DNA of 64,000 nt, from NCBI GenBank assembly GCA_002898355.1, contig BEHD01000005.1, forward strand, positions 34,411 to 98,410. Direction: 5' to 3'. The notes under the pieces are model-generated. The model had not been told where the DNA came from. It saw only the letters and a program-made list of their open reading frames with translations, and made no database searches. Source of the stretch: an archaeon HR01 (GTDB lineage: Archaea > Thermoproteota > Nitrososphaeria_A > Caldarchaeales > Caldarchaeaceae). Each line of letters starts with the position of its first letter. Position 1 is the stretch's first letter. This document shows, one piece after another, positions 32,854 to 64,000 of this stretch. Made by a program: the position numbers and the translations under genes.

Positions 32854-32927
32854 TGGACCGGGAGGGATTTGAACCCTCGACCTCCGGTGTGCAAAACCGG
32901 CGTTCTCCCAGACTGAACTACCGGCCC
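32854..32927 (-). tRNA. tRNA-Ala (anticodon TGC), 74 nt, CCA not encoded
   Basis: Hand-folded cloverleaf: acceptor GGGCCGG/CCGGTCC with the G3:U70 Ala identity pair; D stem GTTC/GAAC; anticodon stem CCGGT/ACCGG with loop TTTGCAC; T arm GAGGG-TTCAAAT-CCCTC; discriminator A. Confidence 0.85.
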
Positions 32928-56946: not shown

Positions 56947-57288
56947 ATGGTGGAAGTATTTCATATAGATGAGAAAACCTGGGATAGTTCAAGTGGTAAA
57001 GTTTCTGTCCTAGTGGATGAAAGTCTGAGCGGAAGGTTAATAGCTGGTGTGGTGGTTTTAGAGCCTGGCCAGAGACTTCCTGCAAAGGGGTTCAGCCAAC
57101 ACCTCGAAAGCGATGAGCTAGCCTATGTAGTTGAAGGATCAGCCATCTTCGGGAAAGAAGACGGCGAGTTTTTAATAAAAGAGTCTGACCTAGTTTTTAA
57201 TCCGAGAGGAACCAAGCATTACGTCATAAACCCCGGCGACAAACCCTGCAAAATCATTTGGGCTCTTGCACCACCTATCAAGCTTTAG
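56947..57288 (+). CDS. Cupin-domain protein (cupin_2)
   Basis: 113 aa, two-motif beta-barrel pattern (G..H.H...E..YVVEG, NPRGTKHYVINPGD); lies between the two hyuAB pairs on the opposite strand. Confidence 0.5.
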   Translation: MVEVFHIDEKTWDSSSGKVSVLVDESLSGRLIAGVVVLEPGQRLPAKGFSQHLESDELAYVVEGSAIFGKEDGEFLIKESDLVFNPRGTKHYVINPGDKPCKIIWALAPPIKL

Positions 57289-58976
57289 CTTCTACTCCTA
57301 CGCCTAACCTTAACACCATATTTGGCACGGGCCTCAGCTGCTGTAATGTAGCCGTTCCTAACGTCGTCTAACACACGCTCTTGATCACGTTCCTTCGGGT
57401 TCCCATATCCTCCACCTCCGCCTGTCACTAGGCGTATGAGATCTCCACGCTGCAGTTGCACGGCTGCGGCTTTCCTAGTCTTTAAAGGCGGCTTTCCCTT
57501 TCTGTAGATGATGAAGTAGTTGGGTGTGCCATCACCTCCTCCAGCCATACCCCACGGCGGGAATTTAGATCTCCCGAACGAGGCTGTAAATATCGCATGG
57601 GAGTTGAGGACCCTGTAGTCCTTTATTATCCCATGGCCGCCCCGGAACTTCCCGGCTCCAGGTTTATCCCTGAGGTTTAGGCTATACTGCTCCACCCTAA
57701 TCGGATACCGCACCTCAATCACCTCGTTGGACATAATGTAGGTCTCGCCGTCTAGGCTGCAGACCATTCCACTCTCTCCATCCTTGTTATATCCGGCACC
57801 CCAACCACCAGGCTGCGGCTCCACGATAGCGAAGGGCTCTCCAGTGCGGTCATCCACACCACCCACTATTGTGGCGCACACACTGAGAAAATGGCCTGCT
57901 GTCAGCTTGTCCGGCACATGTGGCGCTAGGGCTTTCCATATTAGCTCCGCTGCAAATGAGCCTGCCTCCCAGAAAGTGGCGACGGGTGCTGGGGGCTTTG
58001 GGTGGAAGACTGTTCCTTCGGGTGCAATAACCTGCACGGGTCTGAAGGCCCCCTCGTTGGCTGGGGACTGAGGGTCTGTAACTGCTTTAAACATAACCTT
58101 AGCAGCGGCTATGGTCATTGAGTAGGGCGAGTTAATAGGCCCTCTCGCCTGGGGTGATGAGCCGCTATAGTCAACTATGAAGCTCTCATCCGATATAGTC
58201 ACGCGAGCCCTCACATAAACCGGATTATCGGAGATACCGTCATCATCGATATAATCCTCAGCCTCGAATGAACCATGGGGTAGCTTACGTAGCTCGTTAT
58301 AGGCTTTCTCCTCACCATCCCTTATGATAGCCTCCATAGCCCTCGCTATTGTGGATGGTCCGTATTTAGCGCAAAGCTGTGCTATCCTCCTACCTCCTAA
58401 CCTCAGGGCTGCCGCCTGTGCCTCCATATCTCCCAGCGTCATATCAGGCGTCCTTACGTTGGTAAGTATGAGGTCGAAGAGGTCCCTGTTTGGTTCCCCC
58501 GCTATGTATAGCTTGAGAAGTGGGAACTGAACGCCCTCTTGGTAGATCTCTGTCGAGTCCGTGGTCCAGCTTCCGAATCTCATTCCTCCCACCTCGCTCC
58601 AGTGGCCCTTGTTGACTGAGAAGGCTATGAGCTGGCCGTCGAAGAATACTGGGCTAATCAGTGTTACATCGTTGAGATGTGTGCCGTGTGTGTATGGTAT
58701 GTTGGTTATTATGATGTCGCCGTCAGAGAACCCGTCAACACCATATTTTTTGATGCAGTCTTTTACAGCTAGGTCCAGCACGCCTAGAAATCCCGGAACC
58801 CCGTTTGCCTGCGCCACCAGCTCACCCTTACTGTTGGTTATGGCCACGGCGTAGTCGAGGACCTCATATATGACAGGGCTCTTGCTGGTCCTGCCAAAAG
58901 CTATGAATTCCTCCTCGGCTATGGCTATGAGACTGTTTTTAACCACTTCCAGTGTAAACGGGTCTAGATCAGACAT
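57285..58976 (-). CDS. hyuB: Hydantoinase B/oxoprolinase family protein (HyuB), copy 2
   Basis: Paralogous to 53091..54824 with the same motif set (VKNSLIAIAEEEF, GGWGAGYNKDGESGMV, GGGGGYGNP). Confidence 0.85.
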   Translation of the reverse strand: MSDLDPFTLEVVKNSLIAIAEEEFIAFGRTSKSPVIYEVLDYAVAITNSKGELVAQANGVPGFLGVLDLAVKDCIKKYGVDGFSDGDIIITNIPYTHGTHLNDVTLISPVFFDGQLIAFSVNKGHWSEVGGMRFGSWTTDSTEIYQEGVQFPLLKLYIAGEPNRDLFDLILTNVRTPDMTLGDMEAQAAALRLGGRRIAQLCAKYGPSTIARAMEAIIRDGEEKAYNELRKLPHGSFEAEDYIDDDGISDNPVYVRARVTISDESFIVDYSGSSPQARGPINSPYSMTIAAAKVMFKAVTDPQSPANEGAFRPVQVIAPEGTVFHPKPPAPVATFWEAGSFAAELIWKALAPHVPDKLTAGHFLSVCATIVGGVDDRTGEPFAIVEPQPGGWGAGYNKDGESGMVCSLDGETYIMSNEVIEVRYPIRVEQYSLNLRDKPGAGKFRGGHGIIKDYRVLNSHAIFTASFGRSKFPPWGMAGGGDGTPNYFIIYRKGKPPLKTRKAAAVQLQRGDLIRLVTGGGGGYGNPKERDQERVLDDVRNGYITAAEARAKYGVKVRRRSRS

Positions 58977-61030
58977 TAGTCCACCCCTCCATATCTAATA
59001 ACTATATTACCAAAATTGTCTATCTTGAATGTATCGCCTGGCATTACAAGGGTTGTTGATGTTTTCTCCTCTATTATTGCTGGTCCTTGTTTTGTATTGC
59101 CGATGGGAAGCTTCTCCCTTTCGTAAACTGGTACCTCTGTAAAGCCTACTCCAGGCAGATAAGCCCTCCTATATCCCTTACTGGCCTCCTCAAAATCTTG
59201 GGTATCCCCTTGAAGAACAGCGATTCGGGGTTTGCTAACTTTTGCGAAGGCGGCGAGATGGAGGTTGACAACCTCCACAGGACTGTCAAGCCTGAAGGTA
59301 TATTCTTTCTCATGTGCTTTATGGAATCTTTCTGTAATCTCCTGAATTAATCCTCTGTTAAACATTCCTGAAGGAACTTCAATGCTGACGGTATGCTCCT
59401 GCCCATAGTATCTAAGGTCAAGTGTCCTGACGAAGTACATGTCCACTTCATTTATGCCTTGAGCGGTCAGTACCTGGCGCCCCTCTTCCTCTAAAGTGTT
59501 GAACAGATTGTTCAAGATGTCTATATGCGCGTCATCCAATTTCATAACTCTTGTCATCTTAAAATCATGCCTCAGATCCGTCATCAACATTCCCCACGCT
59601 GAGAAGACGCCTGGAATCCTAGGTATTACGGTCTTGGATACCTGTAGCTCTCTTGCAAGAAGCGTAGCGAACATGGGGCCTGCTCCTCCGAAGGCCACAA
59701 GTGTGAAATCCCTTGGGTCATGCCCCCTTGCTACCGATACCAGCCTGAGGAGGTTGACCATGTTTCCAGCAGCCACCTTGATTATACCTGCCGCAGCCTC
59801 CTCCACGCTAGTCCCAAAATGTTCGGATATCTTGGCCACAGCTTTCTCCGCTGCATGTTTGTCAAGCCTTATTTCGCCTCCCAGAAAATATTCGGGGTTA
59901 AGTATTCCTGAGACCACGAATGCGTCTGTGACGGTGGGCTGCTCACCACCTTTTCCATAACACGCCGGACCTGGATATGCTCCTGCACTTCTTGGCCCGA
60001 CCTTTAAACTCCCCACATCATCTATCCAAGCTATGCTTCCGCCTCCGGCCCCTATTTCAACGATATCTACAACAGGTGTTTTCACAGGATATCCTGCGTA
60101 TGTAGGTGTTCTCTCCACCCTGTAATCTGGGTTTAGCCTGATTCTGCCATTCTCCACCAGCGACGCCTTGGCCGTTGTCCCGCCCACATCCAAGCTTATC
60201 ACATTCGATTCACCCACCGCAACACCCAGCTCCCTCGCACCAATAACACCGCCTGCTGGGCCCGACTCGACCTGGAGTATGGGTGTCTCCCTAGCTTTCT
60301 CCAATACAGCAACACCGCCGTTGGACTGTATAACGTGGATAGGGATTCTAATGCCAAGCTCCCGCATCTTCATCTCCAAGTCTTTCAAATAAGTCTCAAG
60401 CAAAGGCTTCACATAGGCATCCAAGACTGTGGTATTCATCCTCTCATACTCCCGCCACTCACGTGTAATCTCATGTGAGGATGAAACATACTTGAAGTGG
60501 CCCCTAGCAATCTTCGCAACCTCTTTTTCATGGTCCGGGTTAGCGTATGAGTTGTAAAGACATATGGCTATTGATTCGGCGCCGTAGCTACGGGCTTTTC
60601 TTAGGGCCTCCAGCACACTTTTCTTCGCCAGCTTTAATACCACGGAGCCGTCTGAGGCGATGCGCTCCAACACCTCAAACCTTAGATACCGGGGGACAAA
60701 GGGCACCGGCTTCCTATAAGAGTAGTTGTACATGTCAGGCCTATTAGAGCGTTGAATCTCTAGAACATCTCTAAAGCCTTTGGTGGTTATCAGGGCCGTT
60801 TTAACACCTTTTCTTTCTATTATTGCATTGATGACGAGGGTGGAGCCTGTACCCACGAAACGTGTTACATCTTCCCCTCTTATACCGCTGGATTTAAAAG
60901 TGTTCACAACCCCTTCAGAGAAGTCATGGGCTGTCGTGAGACCCTTACCGAGAACAATTTCACCAGTCACCTCATTCAGAGCGCATAGATCGGTGAAGGT
61001 TCCACCCACGTCAATTGCTACCCTAAACAT
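58976..61030 (-). CDS. hyuA: Hydantoinase A/oxoprolinase family protein (HyuA), copy 2
   Basis: MFRVAIDVGGTFTDLCAL, ITTKGFRDVLEIQR, paralogous to copy 1. Confidence 0.85.
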   Translation of the reverse strand: MFRVAIDVGGTFTDLCALNEVTGEIVLGKGLTTAHDFSEGVVNTFKSSGIRGEDVTRFVGTGSTLVINAIIERKGVKTALITTKGFRDVLEIQRSNRPDMYNYSYRKPVPFVPRYLRFEVLERIASDGSVVLKLAKKSVLEALRKARSYGAESIAICLYNSYANPDHEKEVAKIARGHFKYVSSSHEITREWREYERMNTTVLDAYVKPLLETYLKDLEMKMRELGIRIPIHVIQSNGGVAVLEKARETPILQVESGPAGGVIGARELGVAVGESNVISLDVGGTTAKASLVENGRIRLNPDYRVERTPTYAGYPVKTPVVDIVEIGAGGGSIAWIDDVGSLKVGPRSAGAYPGPACYGKGGEQPTVTDAFVVSGILNPEYFLGGEIRLDKHAAEKAVAKISEHFGTSVEEAAAGIIKVAAGNMVNLLRLVSVARGHDPRDFTLVAFGGAGPMFATLLARELQVSKTVIPRIPGVFSAWGMLMTDLRHDFKMTRVMKLDDAHIDILNNLFNTLEEEGRQVLTAQGINEVDMYFVRTLDLRYYGQEHTVSIEVPSGMFNRGLIQEITERFHKAHEKEYTFRLDSPVEVVNLHLAAFAKVSKPRIAVLQGDTQDFEEASKGYRRAYLPGVGFTEVPVYEREKLPIGNTKQGPAIIEEKTSTTLVMPGDTFKIDNFGNIVIRYGGVD

Positions 61031-61104
61031 ATCGCAGATACTGGAAAGTTAACTTTTATTCTTTACCCTCAAACCTTTATATCCGCTACTCATCGAGTTC
61101 ATCC

Positions 61105-62205
61105 ATGAACAATCGCCCCAAGCTCGTCAAGCTATTGGATAGATGTAGAGAATCAGGCATAGATGGTGTAATCATAATTCCAGGCCCAAATATGAGATAT
61201 CTTATTGACTTTACATTGGAGGTGTTCGAGAGACCTGCCTTCCTATTGGCTGGCTTCGGGCTGAAGCCTACACTATTAGTCCCACAGCTTGACGAGGAGA
61301 GGGCCAGAGAAGCTCTAGACTTATCATGTGAAGTAGTCTCATACACTGATGATATGGGGCCATGGCATTGGATGGGCCGGCTGTTATCTGACTTGACCGG
61401 CAATGTGGGTGTGGAAGATAGGATGCCCCTTGGACTGTATAGAATGCTGGAAAATCGTGGTAAGCGGCTGAGATTTGTAGAGGTTGACGCTATCTTACGC
61501 CTCCTCAGAGTCTCTAAGGATTCTGAAGAGATAGATAGGCATAGAGAAGCCGCTAGGATACTGCAGGAAGCCATGCTGAGAACTTTTGCGGATTTGAGTG
61601 GGGGAGAGAGTGAGAGGGAGCTCATGTTCACATTCCACCGACACGCATACGAACTCGGAGCCGATACATCCTACTGCCTAATCCAGTCAGGTCCTAACAG
61701 CGCAAAACCCCATATGGAACCCACTACTAGGCAGATAAGATCGGACGATGTGATAGTCTTCGACGCAGCGGTAACATACCGTGGATACTACGCCGACATA
61801 ACCCGGACAATCACTATAAAAAAACCAGCCGAGTCACAGATGAAAATATTCAACATAGTATTGGAGGCCCAGCAGGCTGCAATACAAGCATCTAGGACTG
61901 GCATACCTGCGGAGGAGGTAGACCGTGCGGCGAGAAAACATATTGCCGATGCAGGATTTGCAGAATATTTCATACATAGGACAGGGCATGGCTTAGGTGT
62001 TGAGGTCCATGAAGAACCATACATCCGCGAAGGTAACAAATCCCCTCTAGCCAACGGAATGATTTTCACTGTTGAGCCAGGCATCTACCTGCCAGGCAGA
62101 TTCGGCGTAAGGCTTGAAGACAACATCATAATCACACCGTCAGGAATAGAGAATACAACCAGGCTTCCCAAAACCTTAGCTCTACATGAAACACTACGCT
62201 CTTAG
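61105..62205 (+). CDS. M24-family metallopeptidase (Xaa-Pro dipeptidase/aminopeptidase or creatinase-type) with an N-terminal creatinase/prolidase domain
   Basis: Pita-bread metal ligands: D (VIVFDAAV.YRGYYADITRT), HRTGHGLGVEVHEEP, and E..FTVEPGIY. Confidence 0.8.
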   Translation: MNNRPKLVKLLDRCRESGIDGVIIIPGPNMRYLIDFTLEVFERPAFLLAGFGLKPTLLVPQLDEERAREALDLSCEVVSYTDDMGPWHWMGRLLSDLTGNVGVEDRMPLGLYRMLENRGKRLRFVEVDAILRLLRVSKDSEEIDRHREAARILQEAMLRTFADLSGGESERELMFTFHRHAYELGADTSYCLIQSGPNSAKPHMEPTTRQIRSDDVIVFDAAVTYRGYYADITRTITIKKPAESQMKIFNIVLEAQQAAIQASRTGIPAEEVDRAARKHIADAGFAEYFIHRTGHGLGVEVHEEPYIREGNKSPLANGMIFTVEPGIYLPGRFGVRLEDNIIITPSGIENTTRLPKTLALHETLRS

Positions 62206-62517
62206 TCCAAGAAGTTCATATGCAGGGACATTCCTAAAGCTTTAGCCTAGAAAACTAGGTGTAGGACGTAAAGTTACAAATCTGTGAAGACCACGGACTT
62301 CGGAGGAGGTAGAGTGAGCTGTGGTGGAGCGCATAGTGATTGGGCCAAGCCATACTAGATCCTACCATCCCCCAGATATTTGCAGGAAAGACGCTCATCA
62401 AGTAAACAGACATCAAATCCGAAAATACCACAAGAAACCCCTCATAACAGACACCGTTCTCACGGAAAACACAGCAGTAAAAACCTAAAAGAAAGCATAA
62501 AAAACCCAGCCCAGAAA

Positions 62518-62618
62518 GGGGGCGTAGCCGAGCAAGGCCAAGGCGTCGGGCTCCAGATCACACGGCCAAGGTCAGAGGCGCAACCCGAAGACCGTGGGTT
62601 CAAGTCCCACCGCCCCCA
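62518..62618 (+). tRNA. Intron-containing tRNA, most likely tRNA-Trp (anticodon CCA) with a 26-nt intron in or next to the anticodon loop
   Basis: Hand fold: acceptor GGGGGCG/CGCCCCC, discriminator A. D arm GCCG-AGCAAGGCCA-AGGC. Anticodon stem TCGGG/CCCGA separated by 33 nt beginning CTCCAGA (the Trp-type loop). Variable loop AGACC. T arm GTGGG-TTCAAGT-CCCAC. A canonical BHB could not be drawn by eye. Confidence 0.6.
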
Positions 62619-63380
62619 GCTAAAAAATATAAGTGGAGAAAAGGAGGGAGTGGTGGGCTGGTTGTGTCTTCTGAGGTTGTCCTCAAGATGGTGAAGCCGA
62701 CTTTGGAGCTAATGCGTAAATGCAAGTGGTAGCAGTCTTTTCTTTTCTGCCGGTTCTCCTTTCGACGTTGTTGTTCTTGAAGTTCTTTAAGATGGTGTCG
62801 GCTGTGTTGGGGGTGTTCTTGAATTGGTTGAGGCATAGGCGGAGTATCCCATCCTGGCCATCCGGAAGTGCTTCCCGGCTATCGTCGTCAAGTTGCCTGG
62901 GCTGCTGATGACGGGCTTTCCGTATCGGGTGCTGTATGGCGGATGTGTGATTATCACCCTCAGCCTGAAGCCCGAAACAACCCCCGGGCCTTAGGCGCTC
63001 GTATAGTGTTGCTGCATTCAGGGTGTTGTAGTTGATAAGGCGTCTCCGTAGGCAGTTCCTCGGAGAATTTGGCAAGCGGCAGAAGTAGAGCGTCTTCGGC
63101 CTTCTCCGCCTCGAAAGACAGAAGGCTTTGTTCGGGAAGCTCTTAAGCATCGCCCTGTCAACCAGCATGTATGGTCACCCCCCTTTGGACGCCCGGCGAA
63201 GCCTCGGCCTGAAGGTGCGTCCACCCCAGACCACGCCTACATCCTTAACCCAGAAACTGGTAGCGAATATGTGCGGGGGATGGGATTATTGCTCAAACCT
63301 ATGGATGGGGAAAACCAGTGTCGTGGGTGTTCGTGTATTATCTGTGTAAGCTTATTTTGAGGATCATCAACATTTAACAC

Positions 63381-63614
63381 ATGCCTAGTGAGGGGTTGAA
63401 ACCCAAACCATGGGGCATGCTTGACGTGAAAGTCTTTACGTCGGAGGATAGGAAGCAGAAATTCATCGTCTTCAAGACCCCAAACGGTGCCTATCATGTC
63501 TTTACGGAGGTGGAGGCAAAGGATGCCGCCATAAAATGCGGAATGAAAATGGAACCAACCAGGGCAAACACACGACAATTCTGGGACAAGCTCTGGAAAG
63601 AAGGCAAGAACTGA
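63381..63614 (+). CDS. Hypothetical small protein (77 aa) in the AT-rich region downstream of tRNA-Trp
   Basis: ORF with balanced composition. TATA-like cttatttt lies about 30 nt upstream of the ATG, suggesting a leaderless transcript. Confidence 0.25.
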   Translation: MPSEGLKPKPWGMLDVKVFTSEDRKQKFIVFKTPNGAYHVFTEVEAKDAAIKCGMKMEPTRANTRQFWDKLWKEGKN

Positions 63615-64000
63615 AATGTGTCATTTCGAAAAAGGGAATGGGTTTCATTTCTCTTTCATATAATGGTTTAGATTCGCTTAATCTGTATGTTGTGTTTTTA
63701 ACATCGTGTTTAATACAATTGTTGTGTGTTGGGACTGGTTTAGATCCTTAAAAAAGAGTTGATATTATGCTGTTCGGAGTTCTAATTTCACCTCCTACTG
63801 GGGTTGAGACAATGCTAAGAGAAATGCTTAAAAACCCCACAGAAAAAAATAAAAGCAGATATGAATGGCCAAGAGTTATTTGAGATTATTGTTAATAGAT
63901 TGGCACAAACAGAGAGCCTACCTAGTCATATTCAGACTGTAGGTCTGGCCGTTCTAGGAATTCTTATTCCATTAGCGATAGCCATTCTGACCGAATTGTA

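What the first reader, a model, noticed from the sequence alone, without database searches (positions are those of the whole stretch)
62206..64000. Compositional break after an intron-containing tRNA-Trp: T-depleted A/C-rich tract upstream, then an AT-rich, gene-poor stretch to the window end
Three observations around the tRNA:
- Upstream of the tRNA (about 62390..62517) the plus strand is almost devoid of T (aagtaaacagacatcaaatccgaaaataccacaagaaacccctcataacagacacc...). This is an extreme strand asymmetry.
- After the tRNA the sequence loses the dense, high-GC coding character of the previous 62 kb. Only short, unconvincing ORFs remain.
- The last 400 bp (63600..64000) are markedly AT-rich.

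tRNA genes are classic integration sites for archaeal viruses, plasmids and islands, where integrases often partition the tRNA. The window may end just inside an integrated element or a degraded insertion-sequence remnant. The frames around 62700..63170 read like broken ORFs. Separately, the 26-nt tRNA intron does not fold into an obvious canonical bulge-helix-bulge, which is typical of relaxed splicing motifs in Thermoproteales.
Basis: seen in the sequence. Interest (0 to 1): 0.5.

Follow-up and report, generated by a model that had tools for sequence, protein, structure and literature searches.

The report
Ordinary tRNA-Trp gene beside foreign gene
The window ends with a normal intron-containing tRNA-Trp gene of a hot-spring Caldarchaeales archaeon, then about 1 kb of native-looking DNA and the start of an AT-rich, probably horizontally acquired gene; nothing visible shows a virus or plasmid inserted at the tRNA.

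Summary

- **tRNA:** 62518-62618(+) is a tRNA-Trp(CCA), scoring 57 bits in Rfam. It has a 26-nt intron at 37/38.
- **Intron:** it fits the canonical bulge-helix-bulge geometry (3-nt bulge, 4-bp helix, 3-nt bulge) with one U·C mismatch.
- **Host:** "archaeon HR01", a Caldarchaeales/Nitrososphaerota relative. It is not Thermoproteales.
- **T-poor tract:** the A/C-rich tract upstream is the most T-poor spot in the window. It holds the likely tRNA promoter.
- **Where the break is:** 62619-63380 has genome-typical GC (0.52) and trinucleotide usage (50th percentile). Its only annotated ORF has no homologue among 1.84 billion representative proteins.
- **77-aa gene:** 63381-63614 is a real small gene under purifying selection.
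- **AT-rich part:** only from about 63615 does composition become the most deviant in the window (GC 0.36). An ORF starting at 63861 belongs to an uncharacterised family of about 500 aa. Elsewhere that family sits beside restriction enzymes and toxin-antitoxin genes.
- **Integration test:** I found no integrase fragment, no att-like repeat and no virus or plasmid similarity in 62619-64405. The far side could not be retrieved.

Verdict: an ordinary tRNA locus next to a variable, defence-island-like region. A tRNA-integrated element is not excluded. Low interest.

The parts
61105..62205 (+). M24 (Xaa-Pro-type) peptidase gene. It is the last gene syntenic with relatives, and it follows hydantoinase B and A at 57285-61030(-).
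   Evidence: Pfam Creatinase_N + Peptidase_M24. 77% identical to MAG L004, where it has the same hydantoinase neighbour.
62390..62517 (+). A/C-rich, T-poor tract in the 312-nt spacer before the tRNA. It contains TATA-like A-rich boxes: CTAAAAG at 62485-62491, centred about -30 from the tRNA 5' end, and CATAAAAAAC at 62496-62505.
   Evidence: T = 14 of 128. The window minimum of 8 T and the AT-skew maximum of +0.72 lie at 62461/62462. The promoter assignment is by inspection only.
62518..62618 (+). tRNA-Trp(CCA) gene. 5' exon 62518-62556, 26-nt intron 62557-62582 (position 37/38), 3' exon 62583-62618.
   Evidence: Rfam tRNA 57.3 bits. Exons are identical in two metagenome relatives, L015 and L016, whose introns have the same length but a different loop sequence. 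The BHB pairs were counted.
62619..63380 (.). 762 bp of orphan DNA with native composition. Its only sizeable ORF is 62683-63168(-), annotated as hypothetical HRbin01_00708, and is probably spurious or lineage-specific.
   Evidence: GC 0.52 and trinucleotide usage at the 50th percentile. The ORF has no homologue among 1.84e9 representatives other than itself. Its codon score lies at or below the 5th percentile of true genes. No significant family match for the minus-strand pieces, and no PDB match for the three minus-strand frames. No RNA family match. No structure signal: best z is -2.0 over 20 windows. No repeat elsewhere in the window.
63381..63614 (+). Real 77-aa protein gene of unknown function (HRbin01_00709, GBC69018.1).
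   Evidence: 100% match to the NCBI protein of archaeon HR01. One 74%-identical homologue, P0011/L023. Of the nucleotide differences, 41 of 68 fall at codon position 3, with 31 synonymous and 19 non-synonymous codon changes. Native-like codon score.
63615..63860 (.). AT-rich spacer. The real compositional break starts here.
   Evidence: GC of 63615-64000 is 0.358, the lowest 400-nt value in the window. Trinucleotide deviation rises from the 80th percentile to above the 99th between 62891 and 63081 and onwards.
63861..64000 (+). 5' end of an AT-rich gene (GC 0.34) that continues to at least 64405 in Logan contig L002. It encodes the N-terminal membrane part of an uncharacterised family of about 500 aa.
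   Evidence: Nine homologues at E of 1e-46 to 3e-8, eight of them with E <= 1e-28. The eight aligned with the query share 27 invariant columns. The family is usually fused to a ~320-aa all-alpha domain. Homologues lie in AT-rich contigs beside type III Res-like, type IIG and Mrr restriction genes, HEPN_AbiU2 and PIN toxin-antitoxin genes.

Best explanation
This is an ordinary chromosomal locus of a Caldarchaeales archaeon ('archaeon HR01').

- **tRNA and intron:** a tRNA-Trp(CCA) gene carries a 26-nt intron at the canonical 37/38 position. The pre-tRNA can form the standard splicing motif. The anticodon stem is followed by a 3-nt bulge (C-A|A38). Next comes a 4-bp helix, C32-U33-C34-C35 paired with G-G-C-G of the intron, with one U·C mismatch. 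A second 3-nt bulge (A36-G37|A) and a short inner helix follow. The archaeal splicing endonuclease is therefore expected to remove the intron in the usual way (inferred).
- **T-poor tract:** the A-rich, T-poor tract upstream is the spacer that carries the tRNA promoter (inferred from TATA-like boxes at about -30).
- **After the tRNA:** there are about 760 bp of compositionally native DNA with no supported gene, then a small conserved gene.
- **The break:** only at about 63.6 kb does the edge of an AT-rich, horizontally acquired accessory region begin. Its first gene belongs to an uncharacterised membrane-anchored family that elsewhere sits in defence-island-like neighbourhoods.

The compositional break is the boundary of that acquired gene. 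It is not an attachment site in the tRNA.
For: - tRNA model hit with the intron position.
- BHB geometry is kept in three relatives, and the conserved intron bases are those of the helices. It matches the published definition: a 4-bp helix that includes the first two anticodon bases, flanked by 3-nt bulges (PMC4090602).
- Organism identity.
- 62619-63380 is native in GC and trinucleotide usage, while 63615-64405 is the extreme outlier of the window.
- The 77-aa gene is under purifying selection.
- The AT-rich ORF has homologues in 24-36% GC genes of other archaea and bacteria. These lie next to restriction and toxin genes.
- There are no integrase, att repeat or virus/plasmid matches.
Against: - 760 bp without any gene or RNA is long for this compact genome and remains unexplained.
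- Homology with the tRNA flanks of relatives stops exactly at the tRNA ends, and synteny stops here too. This is also what an insertion would give.
- tRNA genes are the commonest integration targets in this lineage, and att sites can be as short as 8 bp (PMC6563490).
- Sequence beyond 64405 was not available, so an integrase or a second att copy further on cannot be ruled out.
- The promoter assignment and the splicing are inferred, not shown.
Confidence: 0.62

Rival explanations
1. A mobile element, or its decayed remnant or genomic island, integrated by a tyrosine recombinase into the 3' end of tRNA-Trp. It would begin at 62619 and extend beyond the window end. The orphan 760 bp, the 77-aa gene and the AT-rich gene would all be its cargo.
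For: - It lies directly after a tRNA, and synteny with L004 ends here.
- Similarity to the tRNA-Trp loci of L015 and L016 stops exactly after the discriminator base.
- The orphan sequence and the small orphan-like gene have almost no homologues.
- A strongly deviant AT-rich gene of a patchily distributed family lies 1.2 kb downstream.
- Two independent Logan assemblies end at 64214 and 64405. This fits a variable region.
- There are precedents in the lineage: 39 of 68 thaumarchaeal integrated elements sit in tRNA genes, intron-containing ones included (PMC6563490), and a Caldiarchaeum tRNA-Thr locus shows this kind of heterogeneity (PMC3293823).
Against: - No integrase or integrase fragment overlaps or adjoins the tRNA in the minus-strand frames and ORFs searched.
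- No repeat of the tRNA 3' part of more than 10 nt occurs in 62631-64405 or upstream.
- The first 1 kb after the tRNA is compositionally indistinguishable from the host.
- There is no similarity to phages, plasmids or IMG/VR contigs.
- L015 and L016 also differ upstream of the tRNA, so they are not empty-site controls.
Confidence: 0.22
2. 62619-63380 is functional. Either the 155/161-aa ORF on the minus strand (HRbin01_00708) is a genuine lineage-specific protein, or the segment encodes an undescribed non-coding RNA.
For: - The ORF is open for 161 codons and was called by two gene callers.
- Its 3' part has a marginally positive codon score of 0.13.
- It coincides with the strongest negative AT skew of the window, the polarity expected of a minus-strand gene here.
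- A T6 run on the minus strand at 62622-62627 could terminate such a transcript.
Against: - There is no homologue among 1.84 billion representatives.
- The protein is Arg-rich and of low complexity.
- Its codon score is below the 5th percentile of true genes over most of its length.
- There is no Rfam hit at E<1 and no significant folding signal.
Confidence: 0.12
3. The junction is an assembly artefact. The MAG contig may join two different genomic places, or two strains, through the tRNA-Trp, whose exons are identical in co-occurring relatives.
For: - No Logan contig spans the tRNA. L001 stops at 62545, L002 starts at 62589 and L003 at 62647.
- The exons are 100% identical in L015 and L016 while the flanks differ. 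This creates branch points in an assembly graph.
Against: - The intron is specific and only 26 nt long, so ordinary reads span the exon-intron-exon stretch.
- 62619-63380 has exactly the host's composition.
- Both flanks are reproduced at 100% identity in two sequencing runs.
Confidence: 0.05

Closest known systems
Archaeal intron-containing tRNA genes with a canonical bulge-helix-bulge intron at 37/38. For example, 13 of the 45 tRNA genes of Ca. Caldiarchaeum subterraneum contain introns (PMC3293823). The motif is defined in PMC4090602.
   Same: The intron sits one nucleotide 3' of the anticodon. A 4-bp helix includes C34 and C35 and is flanked by two 3-nt bulges that carry the splice sites. 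The C32:G(-3) pair is present. The lineage is the same (Caldarchaeales).
   Different: There is one U33·C mismatch inside the central helix. The inner helix is very short: 2 bp here and in L015, 4 bp in L016. No covariation is available from three sequences, because the paired positions are invariant.
tRNA-Trp intron of Haloferax and other Euryarchaeota, which encodes a box C/D guide RNA (from my own knowledge, not checked here).
   Same: Same tRNA species and same intron position.
   Different: The intron here is only 26 nt, too short for a box C/D RNA. I saw no C/D boxes in the intron by eye.
Integrated mobile elements in tRNA genes of Thaumarchaeota and Caldiarchaeum (PMC6563490) and SSV/pNOB8-type integration (PMC3293823).
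   Same: Foreign-looking DNA lies on the 3' side of a tRNA gene, and synteny breaks at the tRNA.
   Different: No integrase, no att repeat and no mobile-element hallmark gene is seen in the visible 1.8 kb. The DNA immediately next to the tRNA is compositionally native.
Defence islands: clusters of restriction-modification, toxin-antitoxin and abortive-infection genes.
   Same: The AT-rich gene's family lies elsewhere beside a type III Res-like helicase (L024), a type IIG restriction-modification enzyme (L029), an Mrr nuclease (L031), HEPN_AbiU2 (L017/L018) and a PIN toxin (L026). It is patchily distributed over bacteria and archaea and is AT-rich.
   Different: The family matches no PADLOC, Pfam or PDB entry. 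No defence gene is visible in this window itself. In some genomes the gene stands among ordinary genes (L025).

Membership tests
tRNA (Rfam RF00005), tRNA-Trp | Cloverleaf sequence and structure scoring above the curated threshold | tested here: met
   57.3 bits against a gathering score of 29, E = 6e-11, full-length model match 1-71.
tRNA (Rfam RF00005), tRNA-Trp | Anticodon CCA at positions 34-36 | tested here: met
   The anticodon loop reads C-U-C-C-A-G|intron|A after the 5-bp stem 27-31/39-43.
Canonical archaeal BHB intron | Intron between nucleotides 37 and 38 | tested here: met
   cmscan places a 30-nt stretch (the 26-nt intron plus 4 loop positions) in the anticodon loop. Removing 62557-62582 restores a 7-nt loop, CUCCAGA.
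Canonical archaeal BHB intron | A 4-bp helix that includes the first two anticodon bases, flanked by two 3-nt bulges carrying the splice sites (PMC4090602) | tested here: met
   C32:G, U33·C (mismatch), C34:G and C35:G, with bulges A36-G37|A and C-A|A38. Three of the four pairs are invariant in the three relatives. 88% of cells pair, against 47-56% when the partners are slid. There is one mismatch and no covariation.
Canonical archaeal BHB intron | Cleavage by the splicing endonuclease, followed by ligation | not testable with these tools
   This needs RNA data or an enzyme assay.
tRNA-integrated mobile element (tyrosine-recombinase type) | An integrase gene, or split integrase fragments overlapping the tRNA/att site | tested here: inconclusive
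   None in 62619-64405 for the minus-strand frames and ORFs searched against Pfam, PHROGs, NCBIfam, PADLOC or PDB. DNA beyond 64405 was not available.
tRNA-integrated mobile element (tyrosine-recombinase type) | A direct repeat of part of the tRNA (attL/attR) bounding the element | tested here: inconclusive
   The 23-nt 3' end has no second copy in the window, even with 3 mismatches allowed. The longest exact match downstream is a 10-nt A/T run. The far end would lie outside the available sequence.
tRNA-integrated mobile element (tyrosine-recombinase type) | An empty target site in a related genome | tested here: inconclusive
   L015 and L016 carry the same tRNA followed by an HTH_3 gene, but they also differ upstream. 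L004 shares the upstream genes but has no tRNA-Trp there.
tRNA-integrated mobile element (tyrosine-recombinase type) | Foreign composition or mobile-element genes starting at the tRNA border | tested here: not met
   62619-63380 is at the 50th percentile of trinucleotide deviation, and the outlier begins at about 63.6 kb. There are no phage, plasmid or IMG/VR relatives.
Known anti-phage defence systems (PADLOC) | A match to a model of a described defence protein | tested here: not met
   No PADLOC hit for the window ORFs or for homologues of the AT-rich gene. Only their neighbours match, as type III and type IIG restriction enzymes.

The most novel reading that the evidence does not exclude
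The last 2 kb of the window may be the proximal edge of a tRNA-Trp-associated genomic island. Its first AT-rich gene would then represent a new, widely scattered defence-related protein family. That family has an N-terminal membrane anchor and a ~320-aa all-alpha domain, and it has no Pfam, PADLOC or PDB relative. It travels with type IIG, type III and Mrr restriction genes in bacteria and archaea.
Probability: 0.15. Interest if true: 0.45.

Novelty: already known. Interest (0 to 1): 0.15.

Why it matters
Little hangs on it.

The organism is Caldarchaeales. The intron is canonical. The compositional break is about 1 kb from the tRNA.
- It shows that the locus is a standard tRNA gene next to a variable region.
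- The only element of wider interest is the uncharacterised ~500-aa family that starts at the window end. Its repeated position next to restriction enzymes makes it a possible candidate defence gene.
- If an island at tRNA-Trp were confirmed, it would add one more example to a well-documented pattern in this lineage.

Tried and rejected
**Extending the sequence**
- An exact-pattern scan of genome contigs found nothing.
- The NCBI contig of archaeon HR01 (115,861 bp) is not retrievable through the look-up of encoding contigs. That tool returned only short Logan contigs, giving 405 extra bases.
- Chain-walking through homologues of the expected downstream ORF led to other samples, not DRR101363.

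**Pseudogene idea for 62619-63380**
- By eye, pieces resembled methyltransferase (…HPPY…) or metallophosphoesterase motifs.
- No family or PDB search supported this, so I dropped it.

**Other ideas tested on the same stretch**
- A remnant of the HTH gene that follows tRNA-Trp in relatives: tblastn found nothing in the region.
- A structured RNA: no Rfam hit, and z-scores were unremarkable.
- Repeats or IS ends: only chance-level short repeats within the region and none elsewhere in the window.

**Function of the AT-rich family**
- The AlphaFold model is confident (pLDDT 83.8) but has no structural neighbour in PDB or BFVD.
- The afdb50 library was unavailable.

**The 77-aa protein**
- Its model is too poor to use, with pLDDT 59.6.

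**Box C/D RNA**
- By eye I found no convincing C/D boxes in the intron or in the upstream spacer.
Full report
**What is at the coordinates**

Rfam's tRNA model matches 62518-62618(+) over its full length. It scores 57.3 bits against a gathering score of 29, with extra bases inserted in the anticodon loop. ARAGORN does not report this gene and finds only a tRNA-Ala at 32854-32927. The anticodon loop reads CUCCAG|26-nt intron|A, so this is tRNA-Trp(CCA) with an intron at 37/38. The 5' exon is 62518-62556, the intron 62557-62582 and the 3' exon 62583-62618.

**The organism**

- The M24 peptidase just upstream (61105-62205; Pfam result) is 77% identical to a Nitrososphaerota MAG (L004). It is 62-69% identical to Caldarchaeales and Nitrososphaerota MAGs.
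- The hydantoinase A and B genes before it are syntenic with L004.
- The 77-aa protein of 63381-63614 is identical to HRbin01_00709 (GBC69018.1) of 'archaeon HR01'. The 155-aa version of the minus-strand ORF is HRbin01_00708, on a 115,861-bp contig.
- The host is therefore a Caldarchaeales ('Aigarchaeota') relative, not a member of the Thermoproteales.

**The intron**

Two metagenome contigs, L015 and L016, carry a tRNA-Trp with identical exons. Their introns are also 26 nt but differ in sequence.

I propose this structure:
- the anticodon stem 27-31/39-43;
- a 3-nt bulge, i25-i26|A38;
- a 4-bp helix, C32:G, U33·C, C34:G and C35:G;
- a 3-nt bulge, A36-G37|i1;
- an inner helix, U:A and C:G, extended to 4 bp in L016.

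Counted on the three sequences, 88% of cells pair, against 47-56% when the partners are slid by 1-3 columns. The conserved intron bases are exactly those in the helices.

This matches the published definition: a 4-bp helix that includes the first two anticodon bases, flanked by two 3-nt bulges that carry the splice sites (PMC4090602). The motif is canonical in geometry, with one internal mismatch. There is no covariation, because the paired positions are invariant. Splicing itself is inferred.

**The T-poor tract**

- 62390-62517 has 14 T in 128 nt. Only 0.4% of windows have that few, and six other places in the window do.
- The window minimum, 8 T, is at 62461-62588, where the tract runs into the T-poor tRNA.
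- The tract lies in the 312-nt spacer between the peptidase stop and the tRNA. It contains A-rich TATA-like boxes. CTAAAAG at 62485-62491 is centred about 30 nt before the tRNA 5' end.
- For comparison, the tRNA-Ala of the window has a clear TTATATAAAT box ending 19 nt (centred about 25 nt) before the tRNA 5' end.
- I take the tract to be the promoter/leader spacer. This is inference only.
- Both AT-skew extremes of the whole window flank the tRNA: +0.72 at 62462 and -0.55 at 62735. I cannot explain this beyond the usual A>T bias of the sense strand in this genome.

**After the tRNA**

*62619-63380.*
- GC is 0.52, equal to the window mean.
- Trinucleotide usage is at the 50th percentile of all 760-nt windows.
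- The only long ORF is 62683-63168(-). It is Arg-rich and has codon scores at or below the 5th percentile of true genes.
- It has no homologue among 1.84 billion representative proteins other than itself.
- The minus-strand frame pieces and ORFs of the segment match nothing significant in Pfam, PHROGs, NCBIfam or PADLOC (only chance-level hits at E>=0.14), and the three minus-strand frames match nothing in PDB.
- No Rfam family matches at E<1.
- Folding energies are unremarkable, with a best z of -2.0 over 20 windows.
- Nothing in the window repeats it.
- It is not related to the HTH_3 gene that follows tRNA-Trp in L015 and L016.
- I conclude that it is orphan DNA of native composition. The 'broken ORF' reading has no support.

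*63381-63614.* This is a real gene.
- A 74%-identical homologue exists (P0011, L023).
- Of the 68 nucleotide differences, 41 fall at codon position 3. There are 31 synonymous and 19 non-synonymous codon changes.
- Its flanks in L023 are unrelated to the window.

**The real compositional break**

- From about 63615 the GC falls to 0.36, the lowest 400-nt value in the window.
- The trinucleotide deviation becomes the largest in the window by a factor of 3-4. The chi2-like score is 0.69 for 63615-64405, against a 99th percentile of 0.15.
- Logan contigs from DRR101363 and DRR101364 reproduce 62589-64405 and 62647-64214 at 100% identity. They extend the window by 405 bp.
- An ORF starts at 63861 and is still open after 181 codons, with GC 0.34.

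This ORF belongs to a conserved family:
- It has nine homologues at E of 1e-46 to 3e-8. The eight aligned with it share 27 invariant columns.
- It corresponds to the N-terminal membrane part of proteins that are usually about 500-540 aa. In some genomes they are split into about 200 aa plus about 325 aa.
- The family occurs in bacteria (Nitrospirae, Atribacterota) and archaea (Bathyarchaeia), in genes of 24-36% GC.
- It has no convincing Pfam or PADLOC match: none for the model protein, and only isolated weak Pfam hits in 6 of 35 members.
- A confident AlphaFold model (pLDDT 83.8) is all-alpha and has no neighbour in PDB or BFVD.

Its neighbours elsewhere are these:
- a type III Res-like helicase in L024;
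- a type IIG restriction-modification enzyme in L029, an IMG/VR contig;
- an Mrr nuclease in L031;
- HEPN_AbiU2 (weak) and a BglII fragment in L017/L018;
- a PIN/AF2212 toxin-antitoxin pair and DUF433 in L026;
- ordinary signalling genes in L025.

This is the pattern of a patchily distributed accessory gene of defence-island type. I regard the gene in HR01 as horizontally acquired.

**The integration hypothesis**

For:
- the position next to a tRNA;
- the end of synteny with L004 after the peptidase gene;
- homology to the tRNA-Trp loci of relatives ending exactly at the tRNA;
- orphan content;
- assemblies ending at 64.2-64.4 kb;
- strong precedents in the lineage. 39 of 68 thaumarchaeal integrated elements sit in tRNA genes, with att sites as short as 8 bp (PMC6563490). 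Caldiarchaeum tRNA loci show heterogeneity ascribed to integration (PMC3293823).

Against:
- no integrase or fragment in the 1.8 kb next to the tRNA;
- no second copy of the tRNA 3' end in the window or in 62631-64405, where the best match is a 10-nt A/T run;
- native composition of the first kilobase;
- no similarity of the DNA or proteins to phage, plasmid or IMG/VR collections.

L015 and L016 also differ upstream of the tRNA, so they are not empty-site controls. The sequence beyond 64405 could not be obtained.

I therefore rate an integrated element at about 0.2. The ordinary reading, a tRNA locus adjacent to an acquired accessory gene with the break at about 63.6 kb, gets about 0.6.

A minor rival is a chimeric assembly join through the tRNA. 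Its exons are identical in co-occurring relatives, and no Logan contig spans it. The native composition on both sides argues against this.

**Verdict**

The features are of known kinds. Interest is low. The only lead worth keeping is the uncharacterised restriction-associated family that begins at the window end.

Noticed in passing
window 62462-62589 and 62735-62862: The highest (+0.72) and lowest (-0.55) AT skew of the whole 64-kb window lie on either side of the tRNA-Trp. Both flanks are A/C-rich on the strand that reads towards the tRNA. No explanation was tested.
   Followed up: partly
window 62468-62493 and 62783-62808: An imperfect inverted repeat (19 of 26 nt) flanks the tRNA inside the two A/C-rich tracts. 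About 25 inverted 8-mer seed matches are expected by chance in 1.8 kb, so it is probably driven by composition.
   Followed up: partly
window 63861-64000, continuing in L002 1273-1815: This ORF starts an uncharacterised family of about 500-540 aa, with an N-terminal membrane part and a ~320-aa all-alpha domain. It has no convincing Pfam, PADLOC, PDB or BFVD match. In other genomes it lies next to type III Res-like, type IIG and Mrr restriction genes, HEPN_AbiU2 and PIN toxin-antitoxin genes. It is a possible new defence-island gene.
   Followed up: partly
window 63381-63614: This 77-aa gene has only one homologue cluster among 5.8 billion protein clusters (74% identity, L023). There it lies next to an AAA_14 / MCM_C winged-helix ATPase. 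It is clearly under purifying selection. Its function is unknown, and its structure model is poor (pLDDT 59.6).
   Followed up: partly
window 62518-62618; L015 7-107; L016 3880-3980: The tRNA-Trp exons are 100% identical in three different Caldarchaeales-like genomes. The introns keep their length of 26 nt and only the bases of the BHB helices. Logan contigs break inside the exons: L001 ends at 62545 and L002 starts at 62589.
   Followed up: yes
window 62619-62634: There is no oligo-T run on the plus strand directly after the tRNA; the first is at about 62738-62750. The minus strand has a T6 run at 62622-62627, which could terminate a minus-strand transcript arriving from 62683-63168.
   Followed up: no
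window 32854-32927: A tRNA-Ala(UGC) on the minus strand has a textbook TTATATAAAT box ending 19 nt (centred about 25 nt) upstream of its 5' end. ARAGORN finds this tRNA but misses the intron-containing tRNA-Trp.
   Followed up: partly
window 57285-62205 and L004 1968-5196: The hydantoinase/oxoprolinase A gene and the M24 peptidase gene are syntenic between the window and MAG QQ_201901_bins_112 (L004); the window also has hydantoinase B just upstream. In both genomes the conserved order ends right after the peptidase gene. In both, a gene-poor stretch of about 1 kb and a tRNA follow: tRNA-Pro(-) in L004 and tRNA-Trp(+) here.
   Followed up: partly
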